From: Anaeromyces robustus
Taxonomy: Eukaryota
Length of the DNA: 39,389 bases
Reading direction: 5' to 3'
Assembly (NCBI GenBank): GCA_002104895.1
Contig: MCFG01000056.1
Span: 186,001-225,389 of the forward strand
Part shown: positions 1-39,389 of the stretch, one piece after another
How the letters are laid out: the number at the start of each line of letters is the position of its first letter
How positions within the stretch are numbered: position 1 is the stretch's first letter
Notes under the pieces: model-generated
Told to the model about the DNA's origin: nothing
The model's input: the letters and a program-made list of their open reading frames with translations, nothing else
Databases searched by the model: none
Position numbers and translations under genes: made by a program

Positions 1-4898
<4,898 letters not shown>

Positions 4899-7800
4899 CT
4901 TTAAATTAAAAATTGTATTAAAATAAAAATAATGTATGAAGTTATATGATATTTGTAATCAAAATAAGTTTATATAATTATTATAAAATTTGTATTTTTC
5001 TTTTCTTCTTTTCTCTTTATTATTATATTATTATTGTTATTTGATATTTTGTTTGTTTTTAATTTAATAATTTATTAAATATTTAATAATTATTTCAAAT
5101 AATAATAATAAAGTATAATATGTAATTAATTATAATAAATTTAAATTTTGTAATTATTATTACTTTAAACATTTAGTATTAATTATATTATGTTATTTAA
5201 AATAATAATATACTTACTTTACATGTTATAAAATTTTTATACTTCAAAATATATTAAATATATATATATATGCTTATCTTCACTAGTTAAAAAATATTTA
5301 TTAAATTATTAAATAATGATATATTATGGAAAAAAAAAAAAAAGATTTAAAATTTAAATAAAGAATATATGATAATATGAAATAATATTATAAGATAATA
5401 TATTATATGGAATAAAGATATTTTTAAATTTTGAATTTAAATTATTAAATTTGTATTAGTTTTTTCCCGAATTTATGTTGATGTATAAATAAAATTTTAA
5501 AATATTTCTCTTTTCATGGTATTAAAAATAATTGAAATTGCAATTTTTAAATTATGATAATAGTGTAGTTATAAAAGTAGAATTTTTCAATATTAATCTT
5601 ATCAAAATTTTTGAATTATTATTATATTAATTTATTCATAAAACATTTCTTTGATTGTTATTAACAATTAATTATTTATGGATAATTGACAATTAATAAT
5701 TAATAATTAATAATTGGATTATTGGTATTTGGTATTATTATTTATAATAATAATTTTAATATAGAATCTTTTAAAATATATACAATCTTTAATAAATTAT
5801 AAATATAGAAAAAAAGAAAAATAAAAGTAAAAATTTTAAAATTTGAAAGTGAAAAAAAAAAAAAAAAAAAAAAAAGTAAAAATTATGATTATTATATATA
5901 AATTTAATTAATCATTATAAGGCATAAAAAAAAACTTTTTTAGTATAACCGTCAACTATAATTATTAATTTTATTATTTTTAAAAAAAAAAATAATTATT
6001 TTTTATTCATCAATATATATTATATATAGAGTAATATATTATTAAATATATTAAATAATATATATTTATAAATTTTTACTATTCTAATAATATTAAACAT
6101 AAAGAAATATAAAAAAAGTATTTGTTATTAATTATTAATATAAATTATTGATTATAATATATTTTCAATTATTTATACGATTTAGATTATCATATATTTT
6201 TTAATATTTTATAATATATTTGTATATATATCTATATTATTAATCAAATTAAATAATGGCGATTTTTTGTTATAATTATTATAATATATTTATACAATAT
6301 ATTTATAATATATTATATTCAATTAAAAAACACTGGTAAAAATTTTAAAAAAATTTTTTTTTATTTCTCTTTATTTATTACTTTGTACAATTATAAATTT
6401 ATCTAATGGGGTGAAAATATATTAAACGATATATTATACAATATATAGAATATACATAGAATATATATTATTAAATATATATGATATATTTAATCTGTAT
6501 TATTAAATTTAAAAAGTAAATAAAATAAAAAAAAAAAAACTCTATAAATTTTAATTAATAAAAAAGAAAAAACTAAGTATAAATTAATTAATATATGTTA
6601 GACATATATTAACAATTCATTAATTTTTTATTATCATTTTTTTAAAATGAAAAAAAAAATTGAAGATTTACAAAATCTTAATTAATAATTATTATAACTA
6701 AATAAATAAATAAATAAATAAATATAAATATTAATAAATATTAATAAATGTTAATAAATAATTAATAAATAATTAATAAATAATTAATAACTAATAAATA
6801 AAAATAAAAATAATAAATATAATAAATAATATTAATTAAAAAAAAAAAATATTAATTAATAATTATAATAACTAATAAAAAAATCTTTATAACAATGTTG
6901 ATATTTAATAATATTTATATATTAATTTAATTATAATAAACACAATTTAAACTTTTATAGTATTATAAAATTTAAAGAAAAAAATAAAATAAAAATTAAA
7001 AAAAAAAAAAAAACAATTTATAAAAGCTTTAATAATACCATATAAGAAAAGTATAAAATAAAATAATAACTTTTACAATAAAATGAAATTACTTAATATT
7101 ATTTTTCTATTAATTATTTTTTAATATATTTATGTTAAAATACTACATAAATTATTACTATAAAATTTTTGATTAAATTACTATGAAATAAACATAATTT
7201 TTTATATATAATTTAAATATTAAAAAACATTTCTTTTTCATAAATGGCATGAAAGGGAACAGAAATTGGTAGAAATTATAAATTCAAATTCATAAATTCC
7301 AGTTATTTATTATTAATACCTTAAATTAAAGTTAATATCAAATATATATTTTTTTTAAATATATATATTTAATATATTAAAAATGTAGTTTAATTCTTGA
7401 AATTATTAACAACTTGATTATCCATATTAAATATATTATCTTTATCGAAATTGAACAAAAAAATTTAATCAATATTAATAATTTTAAATATTAATATTTA
7501 TTCTTTTTTTAACTATAATAGCATTTTAAATAATAATTTTCTTTTCAATTATCGAATAAACATTATTATTTATTATTTATTATTATACATACTAATTATC
7601 AGTTATTTATCATTAATAATTATTTTATTATATACTATTTTCATCAATTATTTATTATGTTATTATTATATTAATTATATCATTATTTATTATTTAACAT
7701 AAAATATATTCATTATTACTCAATTACCATTATTATTCTTAATAAATTACCATAATTATTCATTATTAATAAATTAATCAATTACCATTATTTATTATTT

Positions 7801-22468: not shown

Positions 22469-25400
22469 CTAATTTTCAAAATGAGATTTCTCTGGATATA
22501 AATTATTCATAAATTCATATATATCATTATAATAATATTTTTCATCAACTTGAAGTTTAATTGAATAAAATAATACAGATGAATCTTCAATACTCTTTAA
22601 ATTATTAAGATTCTTTTTAGTTCCTTTATTTAATGATATAGATTTAATAGTATTACTACGAACACTTGGAGATACAATATCATAAGAATAAAAATCAATA
22701 GTACGATTAGTATTTAATTTAACATTATTATAATTCCAAGCTGTACCATCACCACTTAATATTTCTGGGAAGAATGGATTAGCAGCACCATAAATATTAA
22801 AGAACATTAAAGCATAATTTGGTATAATATCTAAAGCATTAATAAATTTATGTTTAATGGTTTCTTCAACATATTCTCTATAAATCATACGAGCAGGTTC
22901 AAATAAATCTCTATACCATGTTAATGGAGCTCTTTCAATATAACGAATTCCAACGGATTCACCAAATACTTCCTTTATAATACCATTAGTATAATAAAGT
23001 GAACTTTGGAATTTTTGATAATTCTTTAATTTTTTCTTTTCAGAAATACTTAATGCTTTATCTTTATCATGAGGAACTTTACGATTATTAACAAAATATT
23101 TTGGTCCAAAATCTTTACTAAAGAAGAAACGTGGATGAGTATATTCTTTAAAGTAATGATTATTATTAAAATAGACAAATCGTTCAGAAATTCCAGGTAT
23201 TTTATCTAAATACATTTCTAAAACAAATATATTAAAAGTAGGTACAGCTTCAGATGGAATTATATCTTTTTCATTAATAATTTTTATACGTTTATTAGAA
23301 GTATTTAACCAATTTGGTACTTGACCTGGTGTAACAATATAAATATTTCCTTGATGCCATGGAAGATATTTTTCTATAGAACGTAAAGAATATTGTAATT
23401 CATCATACTTTTTAATATTTTTATTTTTATTTAACTTTTCATCAATATAATCCTTTCTTAAATTAATATAATCTGGATCAGTATCATTAACCCAAATATA
23501 AACAAATGAAATATCTTTAGCCCATTGCCATTCTTTATCTAATTCTTCACCTTTATAATTTAAAAGGAAATCAATTTCTTCCTTTTCACGATCACTATAT
23601 TGATCAATTGATTTTAAATTTGAACCAGATTTAGAATCTGAAGAAGAAATAATCGTTGAATTTGAATTTAAATAATTTTCAATAATTTTAGAATTATCAT
23701 CATTGTTATCCTTAGTATCATTAGTATTATTATTATTATTATTATTATTAATATCATCATTATTATTATTATCATTTACAATTTCACCATTTTCATTTGT
23801 ATTTTGTAAAGCACTATCTCCAACAATTTTAGCATCAACATCAATATTTTGACTAGCTGCTAAAGCTTCTTCTTGTTCAAGATATTCCTTTTTTTCAAAA
23901 CTAGAAGGTTTTGGATATTGATTTTTCATAAAGTTTACAAGTTGATAAAGAGCTTCTTTCTTTTGATAATCATCATTTAAATTAAACATAATTATATCAG
24001 AATTTAAAATTCTGTCAAATAATTTTTGATTTCTTTCAATATTATTAAGAATAGATCCAAATTTAAGTACTTTACGACGAATTTCTTGTGGAACAATTTG
24101 ATAAGAATAATCAGTAATAGTACGATTACTATTAAGTTCTAAAGGTGCCATATTTTTAGCTTTACCTAAACCACCAACATTCTTTGGGAAATCTTTTGCT
24201 TCAGTAGCATATCGAATAAAAGCTTGTATAGCATAAGTTGGAATTAAATCTAATGGATGTCTAAATTTATGTAATAAAGTTTCTTGAACTTGTTTTTCAT
24301 ATACTTTACGAGCAGGTTCATATAAATCTCTATACCAACTATAAGGAGAATGATCTAACCAACTAATACTAGCTTTTCTACCAAAAGCTTGTTTTACAGC
24401 ATCATTTGTATTATAAACTGATCCACGGAATTTACGAATCATATGAGCTTTTTTCATTTTAGCAATGGCTTCAGCTGATTCACGAGTAGAACGTACTTTA
24501 TTATTAGATTGATAGAATCTTGGATAGAATGTTTTTGGAGTAAAGAAGAAAGAAGGATGTACATAATTATTAAAGAAATAATCATCATTTAAATGAACAA
24601 AACGTTCACTAAGACCTGGAATCTTATCTAAATAAAGTTCAATAACAAAAGAATTAAATGTTGGTGCTACATGTGGTGGTAAAAGATCATCTTGATTAAT
24701 AACTTTAATTCTTGGATTATTCGTATCAATAAAATCTGGAATTTGATTTGGAGATACAATAAAAATCATACCTCGATGCCATGGAAGATATTTTTCAAGA
24801 GAACGAAGTGAATAACGTAATTCACCTACTGAACGATCTCTATTATTAACTTTACGATTACCACCATTATATTTAGCTTTTAAATCTAAATGATTATAAT
24901 CAGATCCATTAATCCAAGTATAAACAAAAGACATATCTTTAGCCCATTCCCATTCTGGTTCTAATTCACCACCATTATAATTTAATAAAACATCTAAATC
25001 ATGATTTATTTCTGTATTTATTTTTGTATCTTTATTATTATTTTTATTATTATCTTGTTTATTGTCTTGTTTATTATCTTTATTCTTATTCTTATCCATA
25101 TCATTTTCCTTATTCTTATCCTTATCCATATTCTTATCCATACCCTTATCCATATCATTATCTTTATCTTTATCCTTTTGTTGTTCTTTACCATCTTTTT
25201 CATCATTTCCAATATCATTTAATTCAACAATATTTTCAACAATATTTTTATCTTGTTCTATTTCTCCATTAACAAGTCCATCTTGTTCTCCATTCATTAA
25301 ATTCATGGAATCAATAACATCCATAACATCATTTGCATTATCAAGTGTATCATCATCTACATTATTCTTTTTATTTTCAGCTTTTTGATTTTCCTCAAGT

Positions 25401-28400
25401 TCAATTTTTAATACTTCATCACCATCATCTATATTTTGTGGATTTTCGTCATTGTCATCATCATTATCCTTATCATTACCATTACCATTAGTATTAGTAT
25501 TAGCATTATTATCATCATTAGTTAAATTTTCATTTGTACTTCTTGTAATTTTCCCATTAAAACCATTACTTAATCGTTGTTTAATATCATCTTCAGAAGT
25601 TCAAAAGTACTTGGGAATGGATACATGAAAACCATAAAATTAACTAAATTTTGTCCTGCTTTTTTCAGATTTTAATCATCATTAAGATTATAAAAGAACT
25701 GTTGAATTACGAATATCATTATATAATTTTTCATTTCTTTCCAAATTTTCAAATACTGAACCAAATTTAATAGTTTTTTGAACGAACATTTGGTGATACA
25801 ATATAAGAAAAATAATTTTGAATGGTACGATCTTTATTTAATTGAACTGGTGCAAGTTCTCTACCAGTTACCATCACCACCAACAAATATTCTGGATAAT
25901 TTGGAACAGCAGCACCATACATGACATAAGCTTGGAAACCATAGGTTGGTATAAGATCTAAAGGATCTCTAAAACGATGTGTTAAACTATCTTTAATATA
26001 TTTACTGAAAAGTTGACGTGCAGGTTCAAAAAGATCACGATACCATGAATAAGGGGAATGATCTAACCAACGAAGATTAATTGAATTACCAAAAGCTTCT
26101 TTAATAATACCATTGGTATAAAATACAGCACTTTGGAATTTCTTAATCATAGAAAGTTGATCCTTAGTTTCATTCATTTCTAAAGCTTTTTTCATACTAA
26201 ATGGTACTTTTTTACCTAAATAAAATTTTGGAGCAAATGTCTTATCCGCAAAGAAGAAACGTGGGTGAGTATAAGTTCTAAAGAAAATAAATCATCATTT
26301 AAATAAACAAATCGTTCCGTAAATACCAGGTATTTTATCTAAATACATTTCATTAAAAAATGAATTAAAAGTAGGAAGAGCTTCTTTGGGAATAATATCA
26401 TCTTGATCAATAACTTTAATTCTTGGATTATCTGTATCTAACCATAAAGGAACTTGATTTGGAGTAACAATATAAATAGTTCCTTTATGCCATGGAAGAT
26501 AATTTTCAAATGAACGAAGAGAATAACGTAATTCATCCATAGAACGATCTCTATTATCTGCCTTCTTTTGACCACCATTATATTTAGATTTTAAGTCTAA
26601 ATGATAAGGATCAGAACCATTAACCCATGAATAAACAAAAGACATTTCTTCTGCCCATTTCCATTCTGGTTCTAAAGGTTCACCTTTATAACTTAATAAA
26701 AAGTCAATTTCAGCTTGTTCTCTTGGACTTGTATCATCTGGTTCATCCTTTTTATCCTCTTTTTTACCATCTTTTTTACCATCCTTTTTATCCTCTTTTA
26801 TCCTCCTTTTTTGGTGGTTTTACATCAATAACAGCATCTGAAATTTCAAAAAGATGATACTTCTGGATATTGTTTTCTCATGAAATTTAAAAGTTGACGA
26901 CCAGCTTCTTTCAGATCTATAATCATCATTTTAAATTATACATTAAAATTTTTGGAATTGTAATTTCATTGAAAAACTTTTCATTTCTAGTAATATTATT
27001 AATATACTGATCCAAAACGAATAACTTCTTTACGCACTTCTTGTGGTACAATTTCACAAGAAAAATCGGTAATAGTACTATTTTGGAAAGTTTAATAGGA
27101 GCAGTAAAACGAGCTAAACCATTACCACCAACTTCTTTTGGATATTTAACATCTTTTGTTGCATAATAAGTATAAAAATTCAAGAGCATATGAGGTACTA
27201 AATCTAAAGGATGTCTAAACTTATGAGAAATGGTATCTTGAACTTGAGTTTTAAAAAGTTGACGAGCTGGTTCGAAAAGATCACGATAACCAATATAGGG
27301 TGAATGATCTAACCATTTTAATTTATTTTTATCACCAAAACCATCACGAATAGCTTGATTTGTACTAAAAACAGCACCTTGGAACTTTTTAATCATACCA
27401 GCATTATCCATTTTTAGAAATTTCAATAGCACGATTACGACCTCCACAATACTTTTATTAGTTTGATAAAAATTTTGGATAAAATGTTTTTGAAGTAAAA
27501 AAGAAAGATGGGTGAGTATAAGATTTAAAGAAATAATCATCATTTAATTGAATAAAACGTTCAGTAAGACCAGGAATTTTATCTAAAAAAAGTTCAATAG
27601 TAAAAGTATTAAATGTTGGTGCAACATTTGGTGGTAAAAGATCATCTTGATTAATAATCTTTACTCTTGTATTTGGTTTTAACCATGATGGTACTTGATT
27701 TGGACTAACAATAAAAATATTACCTTTATGCCATGGTAAATATTTTTCTAATGAACGAAGTGAATAACGTAATTCATCCACTGAACGGTCTCTATTATCA
27801 ATATTTCTATTACCACCATTATATTTTGATTTAAGATCTAAATGATTCAAATCTGAACCATTAACCCAAGTATATACAATAGAAATATCTTCAATCCATT
27901 TCCATTCTGGTTCTAATGGACCACCACGATATTTTTTCATTTCTCTAATTTCTTTTACAAATTTTTCATCTAATTTCTTTCCATCTTGAATAATTTCTAA
28001 ATATTCATCTTCATCTTCAATCTTTGGTTCCGGCTCTTTTGCTTTCATTATTGGTATTTCCTTAAATTCATTTTCATCTTTTACATTATTTTCATCTTTT
28101 ACATCATTTTCATTATTTTCATTATTTTCATTATTATTATCATTTTCATTTTCAACTAAATTTTCATTATTATCGTCATTTTTCTTTGCATCATCAACTA
28201 TGATTGGTGCTTCTTTTTCTTCATCATTTTTATTTTCAATAAAATCAAGATTATTTTCATTATTGTTCAAATTGGAATCTTCAATATTCTTTTCTTTTGT
28301 CGAATCAGAGAAATTATGTTCTTTTTCCAATTCCATTTGTTTTACACCACGCCTTAGATCATACATAAGGAATATGAAAAACGATATTCCTACAAATAAA

Positions 28401-28426
28401 AATATAAGTCTAACCTTAAATCTCAT
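22469..28426 (-). CDS. Four-module Stealth-family (CpsY/GNPTAB/Xpt1-like) hexose-1-phosphate transferase, type II membrane protein, about 1,985 aa; frameshifted as assembled between ~25590 and ~27480
   Basis: N-terminal anchor MRFKVRLIFLFVGISFFIFLM. Four copies of CR1 (VYTWVNGSD), CR2 (ELRYSLRS..KYLPW...PTFN...IPGLSERF..LNDDYFF), CR3 (WLDHSPY...HKFRHP) and CR4 (NLNDD). ORF-track pieces 27458-28426, 26926-27543, 26295-26645, 25767-26195 and 22469-25324 join through 1-nt shifts with coding-like linkers (EDKKDGKKDG..., SEDDIKQRLSNG...DNANDV-MDVID). No intergenic DNA or intron is visible between pieces. Confidence 0.85.
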
Positions 28427-28923
28427 TTTGTAAATAACATATAAAACAAAAAAGATTTATTGAATTATTGAATTATTTTTTATTTAAATTATATATTTGA
28501 TTGATAAGTATAAATAATAAATTATTATGTTTTTATTAATATAATAATTGATTTTATTATTATTATTATTATTATTTATATTCCCTTTCTTATAAAAGTA
28601 TTAATAATATTATAATAAAAATTTATTAAATGTTATTATTAATTTTAATACTGATAATATAATCCAAACAATAAATCTAAACCCCAAACAGCATTTAATT
28701 CTTATTTCTTAGTTTCTAAAATTTATTATCATCAAAAGAAAAGAAAAAAAAAGAAAGAAAGCAAAAATCTTTAAAACATAAATATTTGCTTTTTATTTTT
28801 TCCTTTTTTTTACTTATTTACTTATTTAAATATTATTATTGATTATTCTAAAATATAAAAATTTAAAAAAATAAAATAAAATTAGTTTAATATTTGTACA
28901 TTTTTTTATATTTATTTTAAAAC

Positions 28924-32355: not shown

Positions 32356-32569
32356 TTAAATTTTTATGATTTAAATAAATTATTCTTTAATAATCAATAA
32401 TCTTTTTTTTTTTAAATTTTAAATGATTTTATCAATAATAAAATATTTAATTTTAATTTGAAATTCACTAATATTCCTAATAATATTCTTTATTATTCTT
32501 AATATTTGCCAAAAAAAAAAACAGGCAATATAATTAAAAATAATTTAAAATTTTCATTTCCTCATTTCA

Positions 32570-33090
32570 TGATACAAGATAAACTTATATCTAATTATTT
32601 TATTTAAAGACAAGACAGCAGGGAAATATTAACAAAACAATATATTCTAATATAACACAATTTATAATAATTATTTCATGTTTAATATAATAGTTTATTT
32701 ATTTATTATTATTTATTATTACATTTTATTATAATTATAATTGAATTTATCTAACTAATATTAATATCTAAACTAAACTTTATTATATAAACACTATTCC
32801 TTATTAATCTATATATTAACCTAGGAAATTCTCAAATAAAATATTAGATTATTAAACTAAATATTAATTAAACCATTATAAAAATCTCTAAACTATATTA
32901 TAAAAACTCACTTGGGATTAACTTTCTCTCCATAGAAAGATCAAATATTAAAAATATAATAATAATAATTTCTTTTATATGTATTATTTAGTTATTTAGC
33001 CAATCAGAATTATTTATTTTTTCTTCTTAATACATGTTCAATCACCTGGTAGTAATAATATAAATCTCTATTTATATTGAGTCTGTATCA
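32570..33090 (-). repeat. LTR A (521 bp, TGATACA...TGTATCA), 3' LTR of copy 1
   Basis: Direct repeat of 34698-35218 and 35689-36209. I see two substitutions relative to those copies (atatatt/atgtatt; attagatt/attaaatt). Confidence 0.92.
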
Positions 33091-33410
33091 AGATGCCGCC
33101 GCTTAAGATATGACTTCGTCCCTTGAAGTCATCAATAAAAGTAGAAGTTTTTATTCCATAATAATTATTTATTATAATTATTTTGTATATATTTTTATAA
33201 TAATTATTTTCAATAGATATTATTATTAGATTAATATATATATATATATATATTTTTATTTCTTCATCTTTTGTTCTTTTTGTAGCATCATCCAGTCTCT
33301 TGATTTTTATTCCTTTTTCTTATTTATAAATCTTCAGCACCTCCGGGATCTTATTTCTTCTTTTATACGTTATAATTCTGATTATTATTATAATTTATTA
33401 TTATTATTAT

Positions 33411-34011
33411 TGTAATGATAGAGTGAAGTTTATTAGCAATAGGCCCGCAAGCTTGAGTAACTCGAAATAATGGACAACACGAGGGATCTAAGAAAGATAA
33501 AAGACACAGTTAATTAAAAATATGTTTTATAATAAAATGTTTTATTAATTTTTATTAAATTTAAAATATAATAATTTATTAATTAGTTAGTGTAATATTT
33601 CGAATTACTTATTTAACTAGTTAATAAAAACGCGAAGAAAAAATATTTCTTTTGTCGAAATTTTACACGTATTTATACTTTTTACGGAAAAATAGTTTTC
33701 GTTTGTAAAAAGTATTAAAAGTTCTAGAAACTTAGATTTTTTGATTTAAAATGAATCTCGGATAAATAAAATTTAAAATAAAAAGAAAAACTAGAATCTT
33801 TTAGAATTTAATCGATAAGATTTTATCGATTAAATTCGAGTAATTTCTACAACAAGGAAAAGTGTAGAAAATTTTGATAATAAATTTTTAAAATAAAATT
33901 TTTCCAAAATTGGAAAGAGTGAGAGTCGAACCCGAGAGGTTCGGCCTGATGGCTCTAGTGTCTGACCACTAGACCATGATTACTATTTTACTAATTCTGA
34001 GTTTCGTTACA
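33411..34011. mobile_element. Solo LTR X (601 bp) nested in copy 1
   Basis: TGTAATGA...TCGTTACA termini. ATTAT on both sides (inside an ATT tract, so a weak TSD). Absent from the same position in copy 2. Confidence 0.8.
33911..33983 (-). promoter_or_regulatory. tRNA-derived type-2 Pol III promoter (A box and B box) inside LTR X
   Basis: A box TGGTCTAGTGG (33976-33966) with intact D-stem GTCT/AGAC. B box GGTTCGACTC starts at 33932, 44 nt later, which is tRNA spacing. TTTT follows at 33909-33906. Confidence 0.7.
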
Positions 34012-34049
34012 ATTATTATTATTATTATTATTATTATTATAAATATATA

Positions 34050-34642
34050 TGTAATGATATGGATCCATTATGGCTACTAATTAGGCTCAGTTCTACCTGC
34101 TTCTATTATTATGTTGGTTGTCTCTGGTTCGAACCTTACTCTTTACCTTTCGGAATAATATTATTTATTTAATTAATAATAAATATATTCACTCAATTAT
34201 TAGATAATAATTTACTTAAATTAATAATATGTATTCATTGAAATAAATTTATTTAAATATTAATTTATTATTCACTTAATTAATATAATAATTTATCTAG
34301 TTCTTAATATTATATTTATTTAATTAAAATAATAATTAAATAATTATATAATTCTTATTTTAAATAATTTGCCCAATCATGTAATAATTTAGAATAGATT
34401 TTTGAATATATAAATTCATGTATTTTATTTTATTTGACTCTTTGAGTCGATATTAACAATCAATTAATAATAAATAAAATATAAATATCAACCATAAATA
34501 AATGAACAAATATATATTATATAAATGAATCTACTAATTAATTAAGTGAATAATCAATAGTGTTATAAATAATTTAATATATTATATTATTATTTATTAT
34601 TAATTTCCTACAATAACCTAGTGGTCACTCCAAATCTTTACA
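34050..34642. mobile_element. Solo LTR Y (593 bp) nested in copy 1, at a deletion junction
   Basis: TGTAATGA...TCTTTACA termini. Left flank is copy-1 internal sequence, right flank is the LTR tail, and there is no matching TSD. Confidence 0.75.
34083..34145 (+). promoter_or_regulatory. Pol III B box with partial A box inside LTR Y
   Basis: GGTTCGAACC at 34126-34135. A-box-like AGGCTCAGTT starts 43 nt upstream but lacks the GG. Confidence 0.55.
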
Positions 34643-35218
34643 AATCACCTGGTAGTAATAATATAAATCTCTATTTATATTGAGTCTGTATCATTCATGA
34701 TACAAGATAAACTTATATCTAATTATTTTATTTAAAGACAAGACAGCAGGGAAATATTAACAAAACAATATATTCTAATATAACACAATTTATAATAATT
34801 ATTTCATGTTTAATATAATAGTTTATTTATTTATTATTATTTATTATTACATTTTATTATAATTATAATTGAATTTATCTAACTAATATTAATATCTAAA
34901 CTAAACTTTATTATATAAACACTATTCCTTATTAATCTATGTATTAACCTAGGAAATTCTCAAATAAAATATTAAATTATTAAACTAAATATTAATTAAA
35001 CCATTATAAAAATCTCTAAACTATATTATAAAAACTCACTTGGGATTAACTTTCTCTCCATAGAAAGATCAAATATTAAAAATATAATAATAATAATTTC
35101 TTTTATATGTATTATTTAGTTATTTAGCCAATCAGAATTATTTATTTTTTCTTCTTAATACATGTTCAATCACCTGGTAGTAATAATATAAATCTCTATT
35201 TATATTGAGTCTGTATCA

Positions 35219-35250
35219 AGATGCCGCCGCTTAAGATATGACTTCGTCCC
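35219..35250 (-). other. Atypical polypurine-tract region
   Basis: Minus strand GGGACGAAGTCATATCTTAAGCGGCGGCATCT directly precedes the 3' LTR. Identical in copy 1 (33091-33122). Confidence 0.5.
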
Positions 35251-35520
35251 TTGAAGTCATCAATAAAAGTAGAAGTTTTTATTCCATAATAATTATTTAT
35301 TATAATTATTTTGTATATATTTTTATAATAATTATTTTCAATAGATATTATTATTAGATTAATATATATATATATATATATTTTTATTTCTTCATCTTTT
35401 GTTCTTTTTGTAGCATCATCCAGTCTCTTGATTTTTATTCCTTTTTCTTATTTATAAATCTTCAGCACCTCCGGGATCTTATTTCTTCTTTTATACGTTA
35501 TAATTCTGATTATTATTATA

Positions 35521-35563
<43 letters not shown>

Positions 35564-35667
35564 AATATATATATATTTTCTTTTATGTATATATATGTAT
35601 ATTTTTTTATATATATAATTATTATTATTGTTGTTTTATTATTTTCATATTGTTTTGTCGCTGTCTC

Positions 35668-35684
35668 GCCCGGATTCTCCACCA
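35668..35684 (-). other. Primer-binding site complementary to a tRNA-Ala 3' end
   Basis: Minus strand TGGTGGAGAATCCGGGC, 4 nt from the LTR. Its complement GCCCGGATTCTCCA-CCA fits a GGGGAAT/ATTCTCC acceptor stem with the G3:U70 Ala determinant. Confidence 0.8.
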
Positions 35685-36225
35685 AATTTGATACAAGATA
35701 AACTTATATCTAATTATTTTATTTAAAGACAAGACAGCAGGGAAATATTAACAAAACAATATATTCTAATATAACACAATTTATAATAATTATTTCATGT
35801 TTAATATAATAGTTTATTTATTTATTATTATTTATTATTACATTTTATTATAATTATAATTGAATTTATCTAACTAATATTAATATCTAAACTAAACTTT
35901 ATTATATAAACACTATTCCTTATTAATCTATGTATTAACCTAGGAAATTCTCAAATAAAATATTAAATTATTAAACTAAATATTAATTAAACCATTATAA
36001 AAATCTCTAAACTATATTATAAAAACTCACTTGGGATTAACTTTCTCTCCATAGAAAGATCAAATATTAAAAATATAATAATAATAATTTCTTTTATATG
36101 TATTATTTAGTTATTTAGCCAATCAGAATTATTTATTTTTTCTTCTTAATACATGTTCAATCACCTGGTAGTAATAATATAAATCTCTATTTATATTGAG
36201 TCTGTATCATTCAAAGGAACAAGAA

Positions 36226-36307
36226 GCCGGGATGGCCGAGCGGTCTAAGGCGGCGCACTCAAGATGCGTTTTCGTAAGAAGCGCGAGTTCGAATCTCGCT
36301 TCCGGCA
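36226..36307 (+). tRNA. trnL-CAA: tRNA-Leu(CAA), intronless
   Basis: Acceptor GCCGGGA/TTCCGGC-A; D arm GCC..GGC; anticodon arm GCGCA-CTCAAGA-TGCGT; long variable arm TTTC-GTAA-GAAG; T arm GCGAG-TTCGAAT-CTCGC; no encoded CCA. Confidence 0.97.
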
Positions 36308-36323: not shown

Positions 36324-36658
36324 AGTTCTTTTTTTTTAATATATATATATTTATTTATTTAATTATTTATTTATAAATAATATATATATATATTTTTTTC
36401 TTACTTTTTTTTTTTTTTTTTTATTTTTTAAGACTAAGGTTAAATCTTTAATTTAAAAAATTAATTTTTATTAAATTAAAAGATTTAAATCTACAACAAC
36501 ATATATGTAATCTATAGTTATAGGTATTACTAACTTAAAAACAAGAAAATAATAAATTTTTATTTACAGAGATTAATCAAAAATAATCAAAAATTAAAAG
36601 AGAAAAAATAATAATAATAATAAAAAAAAAAAATAAATTAAATTAAATAAATAAATTA

Positions 36659-37363: not shown

Positions 37364-39389
37364 GCAATAAAATAATGAAAATTTTATTTAAATTTAATTT
37401 AAAAAGTACATGTTATAAAGTAATTGTACATATTAAAACTTAATCTAATAAAGAATAATAATTTATTATTTAATAGATAGTAATAATTAATAATTACTTC
37501 ATATGGTATAGTGTATATTATTAAATTAAATCAAGTTGGAAAGTTATTATCATTATTAGATGCGTGTGACCTACTGTCTTGTCCTACTGAATTGTCAGCT
37601 TCGACGCTCTTGGTTAGATTGTTGGGATACCTATTGAATAATGACCAGATCTGGCCACTAACAGTAGGCATAATTCTAAGTAAAAGTGCGGATGTACGTA
37701 CCAAAAGTGGAACATCCGAAAAGGTGCTAGGTTTAAGTTGCGCCTTACAAAGACTGTTCCACTCCTCTTTCCCCAAGTTATAATGATTAACTCTTCCACC
37801 AAGAAGGAAATAATATACCCTACTCCATTCCAACGAGTTGGAATGAAAATTTACCCCACTTGAAGCATTACTAACTAAATTATTATAATTAATACTATTA
37901 TTTAAACTATTATTATTGTTGTTGATACTATAACTGAAAGTATTATTTAAGTTGTAAGTTAAACTAACATAATGAATAAAACTATTAGAAACTAAGAAAG
38001 TATTATTTCGTGAAGAATTCTCCAAGGAGGAGAAATTGTTGAAGTAATTAAAACCAAAAAAAATGTTGTTGATAGTTAAATTATTAATGAATTGAGAGTA
38101 GTTGTATAGAAAATATGTAGATAAGCTAGTACTATTACTATTACTAACATTATTAATATTACTATTATCATTGCTATTACCATTATTATTACTATTAATA
38201 TTAATATTACTATTACTACTGCTATTATTATTATAGATATTATCATAAATATTATTATTGTAGTTATTATTAAAATTATTAGAAAAGTTGATATTATCAG
38301 AACTAACTAAAGGTTTTCGATTAACATACAAATAAATGGTTTCAAGATTGCCAAATAACTTAGAACGCCAATGATCGAATGTTGGGCATTCTAGAATCCA
38401 ATGTTCGAAGGTTTGACTACCGCCTTTACAACAAGGACAGTAATCAGGGCAAGAGTCAGATACAAGTTTAGCGGCTTTAGCAATTTCACTATTGAATTTA
38501 TAACCACTACGTATTTTGAGGAGCCAATTAAAGCCATAAGCCAAGTTAGGGTATTCAAGTTCAAGATGTAAATAATCACGAGATAATTCAAGGTGATTAT
38601 CACAATAGGTAACAGCTTTAACGGAGTCTTTTTTGACATCTCTATTCCAATAAAAAGTCAAGATATCTTCTCTAGAGCCAATTTTAGAAAGTTTCTTTGA
38701 TAAAGTTCTGCTTTCTTTAGCCCATGTGTATTTTCTCATCTTCGGAATAATAGTAACTAACTTGGAAATAATACAATTAGAGTCTGCCCATCTCTTAAAA
38801 CATTTATCTTGAGCAATGGCACATTTGGCAGAAAGAGGAGGAATATTAAGATCTTTAGATACATTATATAAAGATATGAAGGAAGAGCGCTTCCTAAGAC
38901 CTGCAATCCAAGAGAGTCCTTTATTAATTAGCCTTTGAGCACCGTTTGTTCTAGTTTTATTAGATCCAAGTAAAGGTGCAACGTATGATACTTGACTGAC
39001 AACAACCGAATTAAAAACTGATTTCTTGAAGGATATAGGCATATAAGGATTAATTAAAAATCCTCTAACAGAAAAAAGCGCTTTCCTAACTTTATTATTC
39101 GTCGATTTAATTATCGGTTTAAGAGATAAATCACTATCAAAAGGAATTCCCAAATACGTATAACAATTAGTTTTTGGAATAATTTGACCAGCAAGGTAAA
39201 AGGTAGGGTCACCTTTAACTTTAGAATTTTCTGCTTTTACAACCGTAGTTCCACATTTACCAATTCCGAATTCCATAAGGTTAAATTTAGCCCAATCATT
39301 AACTTTTTTCAAAAGCTTATTTAGTTTACTTCTAGTAGGTGCACAAAGGACAATATCATCGGCAAAGAGGCCCCCACAACAGTTTTTTA
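37324..39389 (-). mobile_element. Non-LTR retrotransposon (LINE), 3' portion with 3' UTR and poly(A)39
   Basis: RT ORF, ~170-bp AT-rich 3' UTR, pure T39 at 37324-37362, and higher GC than the host DNA. Confidence 0.92.
37531..39387 (-). CDS. LINE ORF2 C-terminal part: RT active site/thumb plus CCHC zinc finger (5'-partial)
   Basis: The frame is open to the window edge: KNCCGGLFADDIVLCAP (FADD at 39366-39355), FGIGKCG, YTYLGIPFD, and CPCC..SQTFEHWILECP. Confidence 0.93.
   Translation of the reverse strand, partial: KNCCGGLFADDIVLCAPTRSKLNKLLKKVNDWAKFNLMEFGIGKCGTTVVKAENSKVKGDPTFYLAGQIIPKTNCYTYLGIPFDSDLSLKPIIKSTNNKVRKALFSVRGFLINPYMPISFKKSVFNSVVVSQVSYVAPLLGSNKTRTNGAQRLINKGLSWIAGLRKRSSFISLYNVSKDLNIPPLSAKCAIAQDKCFKRWADSNCIISKLVTIIPKMRKYTWAKESRTLSKKLSKIGSREDILTFYWNRDVKKDSVKAVTYCDNHLELSRDYLHLELEYPNLAYGFNWLLKIRSGYKFNSEIAKAAKLVSDSCPDYCPCCKGGSQTFEHWILECPTFDHWRSKLFGNLETIYLYVNRKPLVSSDNINFSNNFNNNYNNNIYDNIYNNNSSSNSNININSNNNGNSNDNSNINNVSNSNSTSLSTYFLYNYSQFINNLTINNIFFGFNYFNNFSSLENSSRNNTFLVSNSFIHYVSLTYNLNNTFSYSINNNNNSLNNSINYNNLVSNASSGVNFHSNSLEWSRVYYFLLGGRVNHYNLGKEEWNSLCKAQLKPSTFSDVPLLVRTSALLLRIMPTVSGQIWSLFNRYPNNLTKSVEADNSVGQDSRSHASNNDNNFPT

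What the first reader, a model, noticed from the sequence alone, without database searches (positions are those of the whole stretch)
33911..34145. Two different solo LTRs each carry a tRNA-like Pol III promoter about 77-80 bp from one end
Seen: LTR X has A box TGGTCTAGTGG, an intact D-stem and a B box at canonical 44-nt spacing, starting at LTR position 80 on the minus strand. LTR Y, otherwise dissimilar and in the opposite orientation, has a B box at position 77. Their B-box regions match 16/19 (GGTTCGACTCTCACTCTTT vs GGTTCGAACCTTACTCTTT). Anticodon and acceptor stems do not pair, so the promoter is retained rather than a tRNA. Known: Cassandra TRIMs use a 5S-derived Pol III promoter in their LTRs; LTRs are normally Pol II. 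Inference: an LTR lineage that captured a tRNA promoter for Pol III transcription, as a TFIIIC chromatin barrier, or to make its own small primer RNA (X would give ~75 nt ending CUCUUUCCA-AUUUU).
Basis: partly seen in the sequence, partly recalled or inferred. Interest (0 to 1): 0.8.

Follow-up and report, generated by a model that had tools for sequence, protein, structure and literature searches.

The report
tRNA-derived module inside two solo LTRs
Two unrelated-looking solo LTRs, nested in a retrotransposon pile-up next to a tRNA gene of a very AT-rich amoeba-like genome, share a piece derived from a tRNA gene at the same place near one end; this kind of LTR is already known from fungi, animals and a plant.

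Summary
X (33411-34011, minus) and Y (34050-34642, plus) are discrete LTR-type units. Both end TGTAA..TTACA. Removing X restores the uninterrupted sister element except for a 5-bp duplication. Y joins an internal sequence in 1211 RNA reads.

X carries a tRNA-gene-shaped module: +1 G, A box at +8, B box at +52, end at 73, then TTTT. An A+B pattern hits only X in the window and 0 of 20,000 local shuffles. It is not a tRNA. Y keeps only the B box and about 25 nt after it. X and Y are alike only in their first 120 nt.

The module sits at the outer edge of U3, about 290-370 nt upstream of a TATA-type RNA start, so it does not drive the element's RNA. The self-made primer idea fails for Y, whose primer site matches the start of its own RNA (Tf1-like self-priming). 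Pol III or TFIIIC use is untested.

LTRs with tRNA-derived sequence are in print (Helenus, 2024). This is an amoebozoan-type variant in long, Pol II-driven LTRs. Interest is moderate.

The parts
33411..34011 (-). Solo LTR X, 601 bp. Termini are TGTAACGAAAC... and ...CTATCATTACA as read on the minus strand. It is flanked by a 5-bp duplication, ATTAT.
   Evidence: joining its flanks reproduces element 1 (35440-35575) with exactly 5 extra bases; the terminal motifs TGTAANGA and TCNTTACA lie at its two ends; no internal direct repeats, so it is not a two-LTR miniature element.
33906..33983 (-). tRNA-gene-derived module of X. +1 G is at 33983, the A box at 33976-33966, the B box at 33932-33923, position 73 at 33911 and TTTT at 33909-33906.
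   Evidence: for the sequence; 1 hit in the window, 0 of 20,000 shuffles; not a foldable tRNA; it folds as two hairpins, z -2.99.
34012..34049 (.). Spacer between X and Y. It is the (ATT)n ATAAATATATA stretch of the host element's internal region.
   Evidence: continuous with element 1 at 35519-35575.
34050..34642 (+). Solo LTR Y, 593 bp, TGTAATGATATGG...CTTTACA. Its flanks do not match each other (ATATA on the left, AATCA on the right). On the right it abuts position 52 of the host element's 5' LTR.
   Evidence: termini and flanks; 1211 RNA reads and contigs of two other runs continue from 34643 into one common sequence. A 1233-nt contig covers 34056-34643 without a difference and runs on for 546 nt.
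34121..34162 (+). The only block of Y that resembles X. It holds the B box GGTTCGAACC (34126-34135) and about 25 nt downstream. There is no A box.
   Evidence: blastn gives 43 nt at 76.7%, E 0.001; first 120 nt z 5.56, the rest z -1.27 and -0.32.
34407..34453 (+). TATA-like TATATAAA (34407-34414), followed by GAGTCGATAT (34444-34453). The second is the likely start of the Y-family RNA and a likely self-primer.
   Evidence: table 6: molecule ends pile up at 34446 (42) and 34454 (86); the 10-mer is unique in the window (0.01 expected). It is the reverse complement of the 10 bases that follow the LTR in other copies (loose end).
32570..34693 (-). Host element 2, older and rearranged. Its parts are the 3' LTR (32570-33090), internal remainder (33091-33410 and 34012-34049), and the first 51 nt of the 5' LTR (34643-34693). 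TTCA stands on both sides.
   Evidence: 850 bp, 99.6% identical to 34691-35539; 51-55 bp LTR tail..
34698..36209 (-). Host element 1. It has two identical 521-bp LTRs, TGATACA..TGTATCA (34698-35218 and 35689-36209), a 470-bp internal part without an ORF, and a PBS TGGTGGAGAATCCGGGCGAGA (35684->35664) 4 nt after the 5' LTR. TTCA stands at 34694-34697 and 36210-36213.
   Evidence: 521 bp, 100% identical. for the sequence; no ORF of 120 aa or more.
36226..36307 (+). tRNA-Leu(CAA), 16 bp from the end of element 1. It is the target of the pile-up.
   Evidence: 56.7 bits.

Best explanation
X and Y are solo LTRs of two related LTR-retrotransposon families. The families share TGTAAnGA..TTACA ends, LTRs of about 600 bp and a 5-bp target duplication. 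Both landed inside an older, non-autonomous DGLT-A-like element, which sits with a younger twin 16 bp upstream of tRNA-Leu(CAA).

The common ancestor of the two LTR families took up a tRNA gene, or its primary transcript with the T-run trailer, about 28 nt inside the outer (U3) edge of the LTR, in sense orientation. X still has the full geometry of a type-2 Pol III promoter plus terminator. Y has kept only the B box and the stretch after it.

The module is not the promoter of the element's own RNA. That RNA starts about 395-405 nt into the LTR, downstream of a TATA-like box. The module is also not the source of the reverse-transcription primer, because Y-family elements appear to prime themselves with the first 10 nt of their RNA.

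What the intact form in X most likely does is inferred, not shown. It probably loads TFIIIC/TFIIIB, as A/B-box loci without tRNA context are proposed to do on the Dictyostelium rDNA palindrome, and gives at most a non-tRNA transcript of about 75-78 nt.
For: Shown:
- X is a clean 601-bp insertion with a 5-bp duplication.
- X and Y share terminal motifs, found at these four ends plus two stray TGTAANGA sites elsewhere in the window.
- The Y LTR continues into one common internal sequence in 1211 RNA reads, in contigs of two other runs, and in a 1233-nt contig.
- The A box, B box, 44-nt spacing, end at 73 and TTTT in X give 1 hit in the window and 0 of 20,000 shuffles.
- X meets the motifs used for D. 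discoideum: A box TRRYNNARYNG, B box GTTCRANNC, spacing 30-60 (PMC5391098 passages; regex at LTR position 36).
- The module lies at the same LTR position in both, 80 versus 77.
- It is the only alignable part of the two LTRs (z 5.56 against -1.27 and -0.32; E 0.001).
- An abundant relative about 15% diverged exists (110-nt contig, depth 930, 9 differences in 33939-33996). None of its 8 listed differences falls in the A box. Its left-hand loose end carries the identical GAGTCGAACCC, while 7 of the 8 listed differences lie between the boxes.
- RNA ends lie at Y positions 397 and 405 and X position 395 (table 6). A TATA-like box sits 30-37 nt upstream in Y.

Inferred: the U3/R assignment, the capture route, and TFIIIC loading.
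Against: - No cloverleaf and no Rfam tRNA score. The tRNA origin rests on promoter geometry and the D stem alone.
- In X both boxes lie inside arms of two strong hairpins, which could be the real constrained feature.
- Conservation between X and Y covers the B box plus the downstream 25 nt and not the A box. That is not the pattern expected of a type-2 promoter.
- A near-identical copy in run X6, and 2 of 2 RNA reads in X23, carry G>A at 33928. This is C56 of the B box, a position whose C56G mutation abolishes TRE5-A targeting in D. discoideum.
- Among Y copies the first 103 nt are no less variable than the rest. There are 5 listed DNA variant sites plus 1 in RNA, against 11 listed in the other 489 nt, with 7 rows not shown.
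- RNA over X's module is 1-5 reads deep, in a library not suited to small RNAs.
- Only one X copy and one Y copy could be read in full. No genome was available.
Confidence: 0.55

Rival explanations
1. Inert relic. The piece is tRNA-derived but binds nothing today. It persists because it lies in a part of U3 that tolerates it, and its GC richness merely makes it the only alignable stretch in otherwise AT-rich, fast-drifting LTRs.
For: Y has lost the A box (by eye). A near-identical X copy has C56->T in the B box. Y copies vary in the module as much as elsewhere. The module is a GC island of 34-56% in LTRs of mostly 4-26% GC, so alignability is biased.
Against: The A and B boxes are unchanged between X and a relative about 15% diverged, while the 31 nt between them carry 7 of the 8 listed changes. 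The module has survived the split into at least three LTR lineages (X, the relative, Y), at least two of which were active recently. The host element is only 0.4% diverged from its twin.
Confidence: 0.3
2. Not tRNA-derived. It is a GC-rich, hairpin-forming cis element of this LTR lineage, for example a protein-binding or nucleic-acid structure next to the polypurine tract, that resembles A and B boxes by accident.
For: X's module folds into an 11-bp and a 7-bp hairpin that contain the two boxes (-23.5 kcal/mol, z -2.99, 1 of 200 shuffles as good). There is no tRNA model hit. The X-Y conserved block runs past the B box into sequence that a promoter does not need.
Against: Five independent tRNA-gene features coincide in register: +1 G, A box at +8, D stem, B box at +52, and end at 73 followed by TTTT. 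The pattern gives 0 of 20,000 shuffles. Y's equivalent stretch has no significant fold (z +1.04 and +1.11), so the hairpins are not conserved.
Confidence: 0.1
3. The LTR-encoded RNA of about 75 nt ending ...CUCUUUCCA primes reverse transcription of its own element.
For: In D. discoideum the DGLT-A PBS has no matching tRNA in the genome (PMC5006619, section 7). So an unconventional primer is not absurd in this group.
Against: In Y-family copies the bases after the LTR (A + TATCGACTCC...) are not complementary to the module's 3' end. They are complementary to 34444-34453 within Y itself. The PBS of the 521-bp-LTR element in the window is TGGTGGAGAATCC. No TGGAAAGAGTGAG-type site lies next to any LTR end in the window.
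Confidence: 0.03
4. A Helenus/Cassandra-type element whose whole RNA template is made by Pol III from the LTR-borne promoter.
For: This is the published model for TRIMs with small-RNA-derived LTR sequences (PMC10886601, Discussion).
Against: X has 19 sense-strand runs of T>=4, the first right after the module at position 103. Y has four before position 383. The LTRs are 593-601 bp, against at most 323 bp in Helenus. RNA ends map about 400 nt into the LTR. There is no two-LTR miniature structure.
Confidence: 0.02

Closest known systems
Helenus (TRIMp3), Kojima 2024, PMC10886601
   Same: The LTR contains a tRNA-derived sequence with A and B boxes kept and no functional tRNA. Target duplications are 4-5 bp. 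Solo LTRs are common. Several families coexist in one genome.
   Different: Helenus are miniature elements of 311-1263 bp in all, with LTRs up to 323 bp, thought to be transcribed by Pol III. They are listed from fungi, animals and Selaginella only (Table 1; 0 occurrences of 'Amoebozoa' or 'Dictyostelium'). Here the LTRs are about 600 bp. The module is far upstream of a TATA-type start. T-runs block Pol III. Y has at least 546 nt of internal sequence, and Y keeps only half of the module.
Cassandra TRIMs (5S-derived LTR promoter)
   Same: A small-RNA gene piece with an internal Pol III promoter sits inside an LTR.
   Different: The piece is 5S-derived, not tRNA-derived. Cassandra occurs in plants. 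Its RNA starts and ends in the 5S part (PMC10886601 introduction passage).
A/B-box loci without tRNA context on the Dictyostelium rDNA palindrome (PMC5391098)
   Same: They have an A box TRRYNNARYNG and a B box GTTCRANNC at tRNA-like spacing, with no tRNA. They are proposed to assemble Pol III complexes.
   Different: Those loci are fixed host sequences defined by TRE5-A integrations about 47 bp upstream. Here the module rides on a mobile LTR, and no such integration is seen. The nearest element end (Y) lies 67 bp upstream of X's +1.
DGLT-A family of dictyostelid Ty3/gypsy elements (PMC5006619, PMC6101501). This applies to the host 521-bp-LTR elements, not to X or Y.
   Same: Insertion is 16 bp upstream of a tRNA gene (published range 10-34 bp in most species). 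The PBS is of the TGG type, close to the LTR. LTR length lies within the published 163-601 bp.
   Different: No ORF, so a non-autonomous or deleted form. The PBS differs from the D. discoideum one. Family identity by protein could not be tested.
Tf1/Tj1-type self-primed LTR retrotransposons (PMC4600332 passages). This applies to the Y family.
   Same: The PBS is complementary to the 5' end of the element's own RNA. A second RNA end lies exactly after the complementary stretch, as expected from RNase H cleavage.
   Different: The complementarity is only 10 nt. It was inferred from one 30-nt read consensus and from read-end piles. No protein of the Y family was seen.

Membership tests
Solo LTR of an LTR retrotransposon | TG..CA ends with short inverted termini | tested here: met
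   X: TGTAATGATAG / reverse complement TGTAACGAAAC. Y: TGTAATGATAT / reverse complement TGTAAAGATTT.
Solo LTR of an LTR retrotransposon | Target-site duplication of 4-6 bp around a discrete insertion | tested here: met
   X: one search shows exactly 5 extra bases (ATTAT) compared with the uninterrupted twin element. The duplication lies in an (ATT)n run, so its sequence alone is weak evidence. Y: not met, flanks are ATATA and AATCA and about 590 bp of the host is missing.
Solo LTR of an LTR retrotransposon | The same unit occurs joined to an internal region in other copies | tested here: inconclusive
   Y: met, with 1211 RNA reads and a 1233-nt contig. X: not seen. Its left end fell in a stretch that the lay skipped as repeat.
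Helenus / TRIMp3 | tRNA-derived sequence with A and B boxes inside the LTR | tested here: met
   X: both boxes. Y: B box only.
Helenus / TRIMp3 | Miniature two-LTR element (under about 1.3 kb) with PBS and PPT and no ORF | tested here: not met
   No internal direct repeats in X or Y. The LTRs are 593-601 bp, against at most 323 bp. The Y internal part is at least 546 nt. Full-length copies could not be read.
Helenus / TRIMp3 | Template RNA made by Pol III | not testable with these tools
   The sequence argues against it: T>=4 runs from position 103 in X and 309 in Y, and RNA ends about 400 nt into the LTRs.
tRNA gene | Cloverleaf recognised by tRNA models | tested here: not met
tRNA-derived SINE | Pol III promoter at the very 5' end, A-rich or LINE-derived tail | tested here: not met
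   28 nt precede +1 inside the unit. The other end is ...CTATCATTACA without a tail.
Dictyostelium-type A/B-box locus (Pol III complex site) | TRRYNNARYNG and GTTCRANNC 30-60 bp apart | tested here: met
   X only (the A-box regex hits at LTR position 36; the B box is at position 80). Motifs are from PMC5391098.
Dictyostelium-type A/B-box locus (Pol III complex site) | Used as a target by tRNA-gene-targeting retrotransposons at tRNA-like distance | tested here: not met
   Nothing ends about 47 bp or 13-33 bp upstream of X's +1. Y's edge is 67 bp upstream (coordinates). This is a single locus only.
Tf1-type self-primed element (Y family) | PBS complementary to the first bases of the element's RNA | tested here: met
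   The match is 10 of 10 nt. GAGTCGATAT is unique in the window, with 0.01 expected. RNA ends lie at 34446 and 34454. The meaning of 'end' in that table and the library's strandedness are my reading.

The most novel reading that the evidence does not exclude
In a genome where tRNA genes are the landing pads for several retrotransposon lineages, an LTR lineage carries its own portable landing pad. Each new LTR with an intact A/B-box module would load TFIIIC/TFIIIB. It would then become a target, or a protected niche, for further insertions, seeding nests away from real tRNA genes. The head-to-head X-Y pair, with each LTR edge 64-67 bp upstream of the other's module, would be one such event.
Probability: 0.1. 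Interest if true: 0.75.

Novelty: new variant of a known kind. Interest (0 to 1): 0.45.

Why it matters
If the module is active, mobile LTRs would scatter Pol III-complex sites through a compact genome whose retrotransposons choose their targets by exactly such sites. That would affect where elements nest and how Pol III sites and tRNA pseudogenes are annotated.

It would also show that a tRNA-derived piece in an LTR need not be the element's promoter, unlike the published Helenus/Cassandra model. And it would extend such LTRs to an amoebozoan-type genome.

If the module is inert, it is a tidy example of tRNA-gene capture by an LTR and little more.

Tried and rejected
**Searches that gave nothing**
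- Whole genome: none is held, so the proposed family-wide conservation test could not be run.
- Two scans of metagenome contigs found 0 loci: Y's 3' end 22-mer and a degenerate 30-mer of the module.
- One scan of viral contigs with the same 30-mer found 0 loci.
- The supplement of PMC5006619 (1 file, 10,985 characters) held none of five strings from the LTR ends and PBSs. The elements therefore could not be named.

**Ideas rejected**
- tRNA models: no hit.
- Coding explanation for the GC-rich module. Y's frame 1 is open for 40 codons from the first LTR base. X has stops at codons 7, 8 and 19 in the same frame, and the X-Y alignment needs gaps.
- TRIM structure: rejected.
- Primer idea: rejected for Y.
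- A discrete small RNA over Y's module. RNA depth is 1219-1613 at 34052-34145 and 204-425 over 34146-34239. However, U3 is part of the 3' end of any LTR-element RNA, and the low stretch is almost pure A+T. I draw no conclusion from it.

**Limits on what could be measured**
- Copy numbers were not derived, because the kind of library of runs X6 and X16 is not on record.
'Dictyostelid-like' rests on three things: base composition, poly-Asn/Gln-type repeats, and retroelements placed 16 bp upstream and about 100 bp downstream of a tRNA gene as described for dictyostelids.
- Print searches for the same thing in dictyostelids (passages 49) found no LTR-borne A/B boxes described. Subscription papers and Repbase were not searchable.
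Full report
**Setting**

The window is extremely AT-rich: 4-30% GC per kb. It has long Asn/Gln-type triplet repeats. No whole genome is held for it. ARAGORN and Rfam find one tRNA gene, tRNA-Leu(CAA) at 36226-36307 on the plus strand. I call the organism dictyostelid-like. That is an inference from composition and from the arrangement of retroelements around the tRNA gene. It was not tested.

**What surrounds the finding**

A self-comparison and the sequence itself show a 521-bp unit, TGATACA...TGTATCA, three times:
- 32570-33090
- 34698-35218
- 35689-36209

The copies are 99.6-100% identical. There is also a 51-nt tail of the same unit at 34643-34693.

The first two copies are each followed by the same 321 bp. 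TTCA stands at 32566-32569, 34694-34697 and 36210-36213. Read on the minus strand, copy 35689-36209 is followed after 4 nt by TGGTGGAGAATCCGGGCGAGA, a tRNA-type primer binding site.

So two minus-strand LTR elements lie in tandem, each flanked by the same 4-bp duplication. The outer LTR ends 16 bp from the tRNA gene. This is the position described for dictyostelid DGLT-A elements: 10-34 bp upstream in most species, with LTRs of 163-601 bp (PMC5006619 Table 1 and passages; PMC6101501 passages).

Neither element has an ORF of 120 aa or more. The younger one (34698-36209) has identical LTRs. The older one (32570-34693) has lost most of its 5' LTR and about 120 bp of its internal part. In their place it contains the 1232 bp that hold the finding.

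**X and Y are discrete LTR-type units**

Joining the sequences on either side of 33411-34011 reproduces the uninterrupted twin element with exactly five extra bases. X is therefore a 601-bp insertion with a 5-bp duplication, ATTAT, inside an (ATT)n run.

Y (34050-34642, 593 bp) has non-matching flanks. On the right it abuts position 52 of the host's 5' LTR, so host sequence was lost there.

All four ends share one motif. TGTAANGA starts both units. Its complement TCNTTACA occurs only at their two other ends in the window. TGTAANGA itself has two further stray sites. Neither unit contains internal direct repeats, so neither is a two-LTR miniature element.

Laid reads and contigs of four public runs show that Y is an LTR of an expressed family:
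- 1211 RNA reads of run X23 run on from 34643 into one common sequence, TATCGACTCCACGTTG..., with agreement 0.98. Contigs of runs X6 and X3 show the same loose end.
- A 1233-nt contig of run X3 covers 34056-34643 without a difference and continues for 546 nt.

For X no such junction was seen, because its far end lay in a stretch that the lay skipped as repeat.

**The tRNA-like module**

On the minus strand X reads 28 nt and then:
- G at 33983, taken as +1
- TGGTCTAGTGG at +8
- a pairing D stem GTCT/AGAC
- GGTTCGACTC at +52
- position 73 at 33911
- one A, then TTTT

A pattern for A box, spacing and B box hits only here in the window. It hits in 0 of 20,000 shuffles that keep local composition.

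It is not a tRNA. There is no Rfam hit at E<=10 on 351 bases. ARAGORN reports only poor structures at thresholds of 70% or lower. Instead it folds into two hairpins that include both boxes (z -2.99).

Y has GGTTCGAACC at LTR position 77, against 80 in X, but no A box.

X read on the minus strand and Y read on the plus strand are alike only in their first 120 nt: z 5.56, against -1.27 for positions 120-400 and -0.32 for the last 200. The core is a 43-nt block of 76.7% identity (E 0.001). It runs from just before the B box to about 25 nt past it.

The same position in both LTRs, together with the shared termini, argues for one capture in a common ancestor rather than two captures.

**Relatives and RNA**

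A 110-nt contig of run X6 (depth 930) matches 33939-33996 with 9 differences. Contigs through X's middle have depth 11.7-23.2 in the same run.
- None of the 8 listed differences lies in the A box (33966-33976).
- Seven of the 8 listed differences lie between the boxes.
- The contig's loose end to the left carries the identical GAGTCGAACCC.

That is one comparison in favour of constraint on the boxes.

Three results go against constraint:
- A near-identical copy in X6, and 2 of 2 reads in X23, have G>A at 33928. This is C56 of the B box, a position whose C56G mutation abolishes TRE5-A targeting in D. discoideum (PMC5391098 passage).
- Y copies show 5 listed DNA variant sites plus 1 in RNA in the first 103 nt, against 11 listed in the remaining 489 nt, with 7 rows not shown.
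- RNA over X's module is only 1-5 reads deep.

The RNA library is an ordinary paired RNA-seq, so it cannot test for a Pol III product of about 75 nt.

**Where the LTR's own RNA starts**

RNA pairs on Y are almost all of one direction: 1613 against 1.8 in the first bin.

Molecule ends pile up at 34446 (42 molecules) and 34454 (86). Depth rises from 29 to 831-1158 across them. A TATA-like TATATAAA lies at 34407-34414. On X the only flagged end is at 33617 (5 molecules), which is LTR position 395. The Y ends are at positions 397 and 405.

I read these as Pol II-type starts. They put the module 290-370 nt upstream, at the outer edge of U3, in sense orientation. The reading of 'end' in table 6, and of the library's strandedness, is mine.

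1. *Pol III transcription.* It cannot supply the element's template RNA. X has 19 sense-strand runs of T>=4, beginning at position 103, directly after the module. Y has four before position 383. A short transcript from X-type copies remains possible and untested.
2. *Own primer.* In Y-family copies the ten bases after the LTR (A at 34643 plus TATCGACTC) are the exact complement of GAGTCGATAT at 34444-34453. That 10-mer is unique in the window, with 0.01 expected. It lies at the RNA start, and the second pile of ends (34454) falls exactly after it. This is the pattern of Tf1/Tj1-type self-priming (PMC4600332 passages). It is not priming by the module's RNA. The host element's PBS does not fit the module either.
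3. *TFIIIC site or barrier.* This is not testable here. The nearest precedent is in D. discoideum, where A/B-box loci without tRNA context on the rDNA palindrome are targets of TRE5-A and are proposed to assemble Pol III complexes. A lone B box is a poor target, and one occurs about every 7.5 kb (PMC5391098 passages). By those motifs X qualifies and Y does not.

**Comparison with what is known**

LTRs holding a tRNA-derived sequence with conserved A and B boxes and no functional tRNA were described in 2024 as Helenus (PMC10886601; Results, Discussion, figure legends and Table 1 read). They belong, with Ajax and Cassandra, to 'TRIMp3'. The same paper notes that 'not a few' Repbase LTRs contain tRNA-like parts.

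The present case differs in several ways:
- Helenus elements are miniature (LTRs up to 323 bp, 311-1263 bp in all) and are presumed to be Pol III-driven.
- They are listed from fungi, animals and Selaginella only.
- Here the LTRs are about 600 bp, the module is not the promoter, one family is self-primed and strongly expressed, and the genome is amoebozoan-like.

I therefore do not file X or Y as Helenus. I rate the finding a new variant of a known kind.

Searches of the held literature for such LTRs in dictyostelids found none. Repbase and subscription journals could not be searched.

**Verdict**

The solo-LTR and tRNA-derivation parts of the interpretation are supported. The primer idea is contradicted for Y. 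Pol III or TFIIIC function is open.

Committed reading: a captured tRNA-gene module at the U3 edge that, where intact, probably loads TFIIIC/TFIIIB. Confidence in the whole statement is 0.55. I put in-vivo binding alone at about one in three.

Noticed in passing
32566-36213: Two non-autonomous 521-bp-LTR elements lie in tandem, each flanked by TTCA. This looks as if the second integrated at exactly the same site, 16 bp upstream of tRNA-Leu(CAA), as the first. The younger element has 100% identical LTRs and only 470 bp between them.
   Followed up: partly
34407-34453 and the read consensus beyond 34643: Y-family elements look self-primed. The 10 bases after the LTR are complementary to the RNA start within the LTR, and RNA ends pile up at 34446 and exactly after the complementary stretch at 34454. 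The dictyostelid survey I read (PMC5006619, section 7) describes only TGG-type sites or polypyrimidine tracts.
   Followed up: partly
36393-36429 and 37531-39387 (minus): A long T-run about 90-120 bp downstream of the tRNA gene is followed by a minus-strand ORF with weak reverse-transcriptase similarity (Pfam RVT_1, E 6.4e-4; RT-like clusters). This looks like a non-LTR element with its poly(A) end facing the tRNA gene, as described for TRE3-type elements.
   Followed up: partly
22469-28456 (minus): A cluster of Stealth-family genes (Pfam CR1, CR2, CR3). One ORF is 1043 aa long, and four shorter consecutive ORFs look like a second and third paralogue split by introns or stops.
   Followed up: no
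33483, 33484, 33953, 33979: All four laid runs read other letters than the window at these places: G>A, G>A, C>T and A>G. The window's copy differs from every sampled strain, or the assembly is in error there.
   Followed up: no
33958-34004: In run X16 the stretch holding the A box has by far the highest summed contig depth (42,192), and 15 contigs cover it. Real tRNA genes with a similar 5' part may be laid here, so this depth says nothing about LTR copy number.
   Followed up: no
3-4958 (minus): An open frame of 1652 aa runs off the window's start. It is rich in Asn/Gln-type triplet repeats and has no Pfam family.
   Followed up: no
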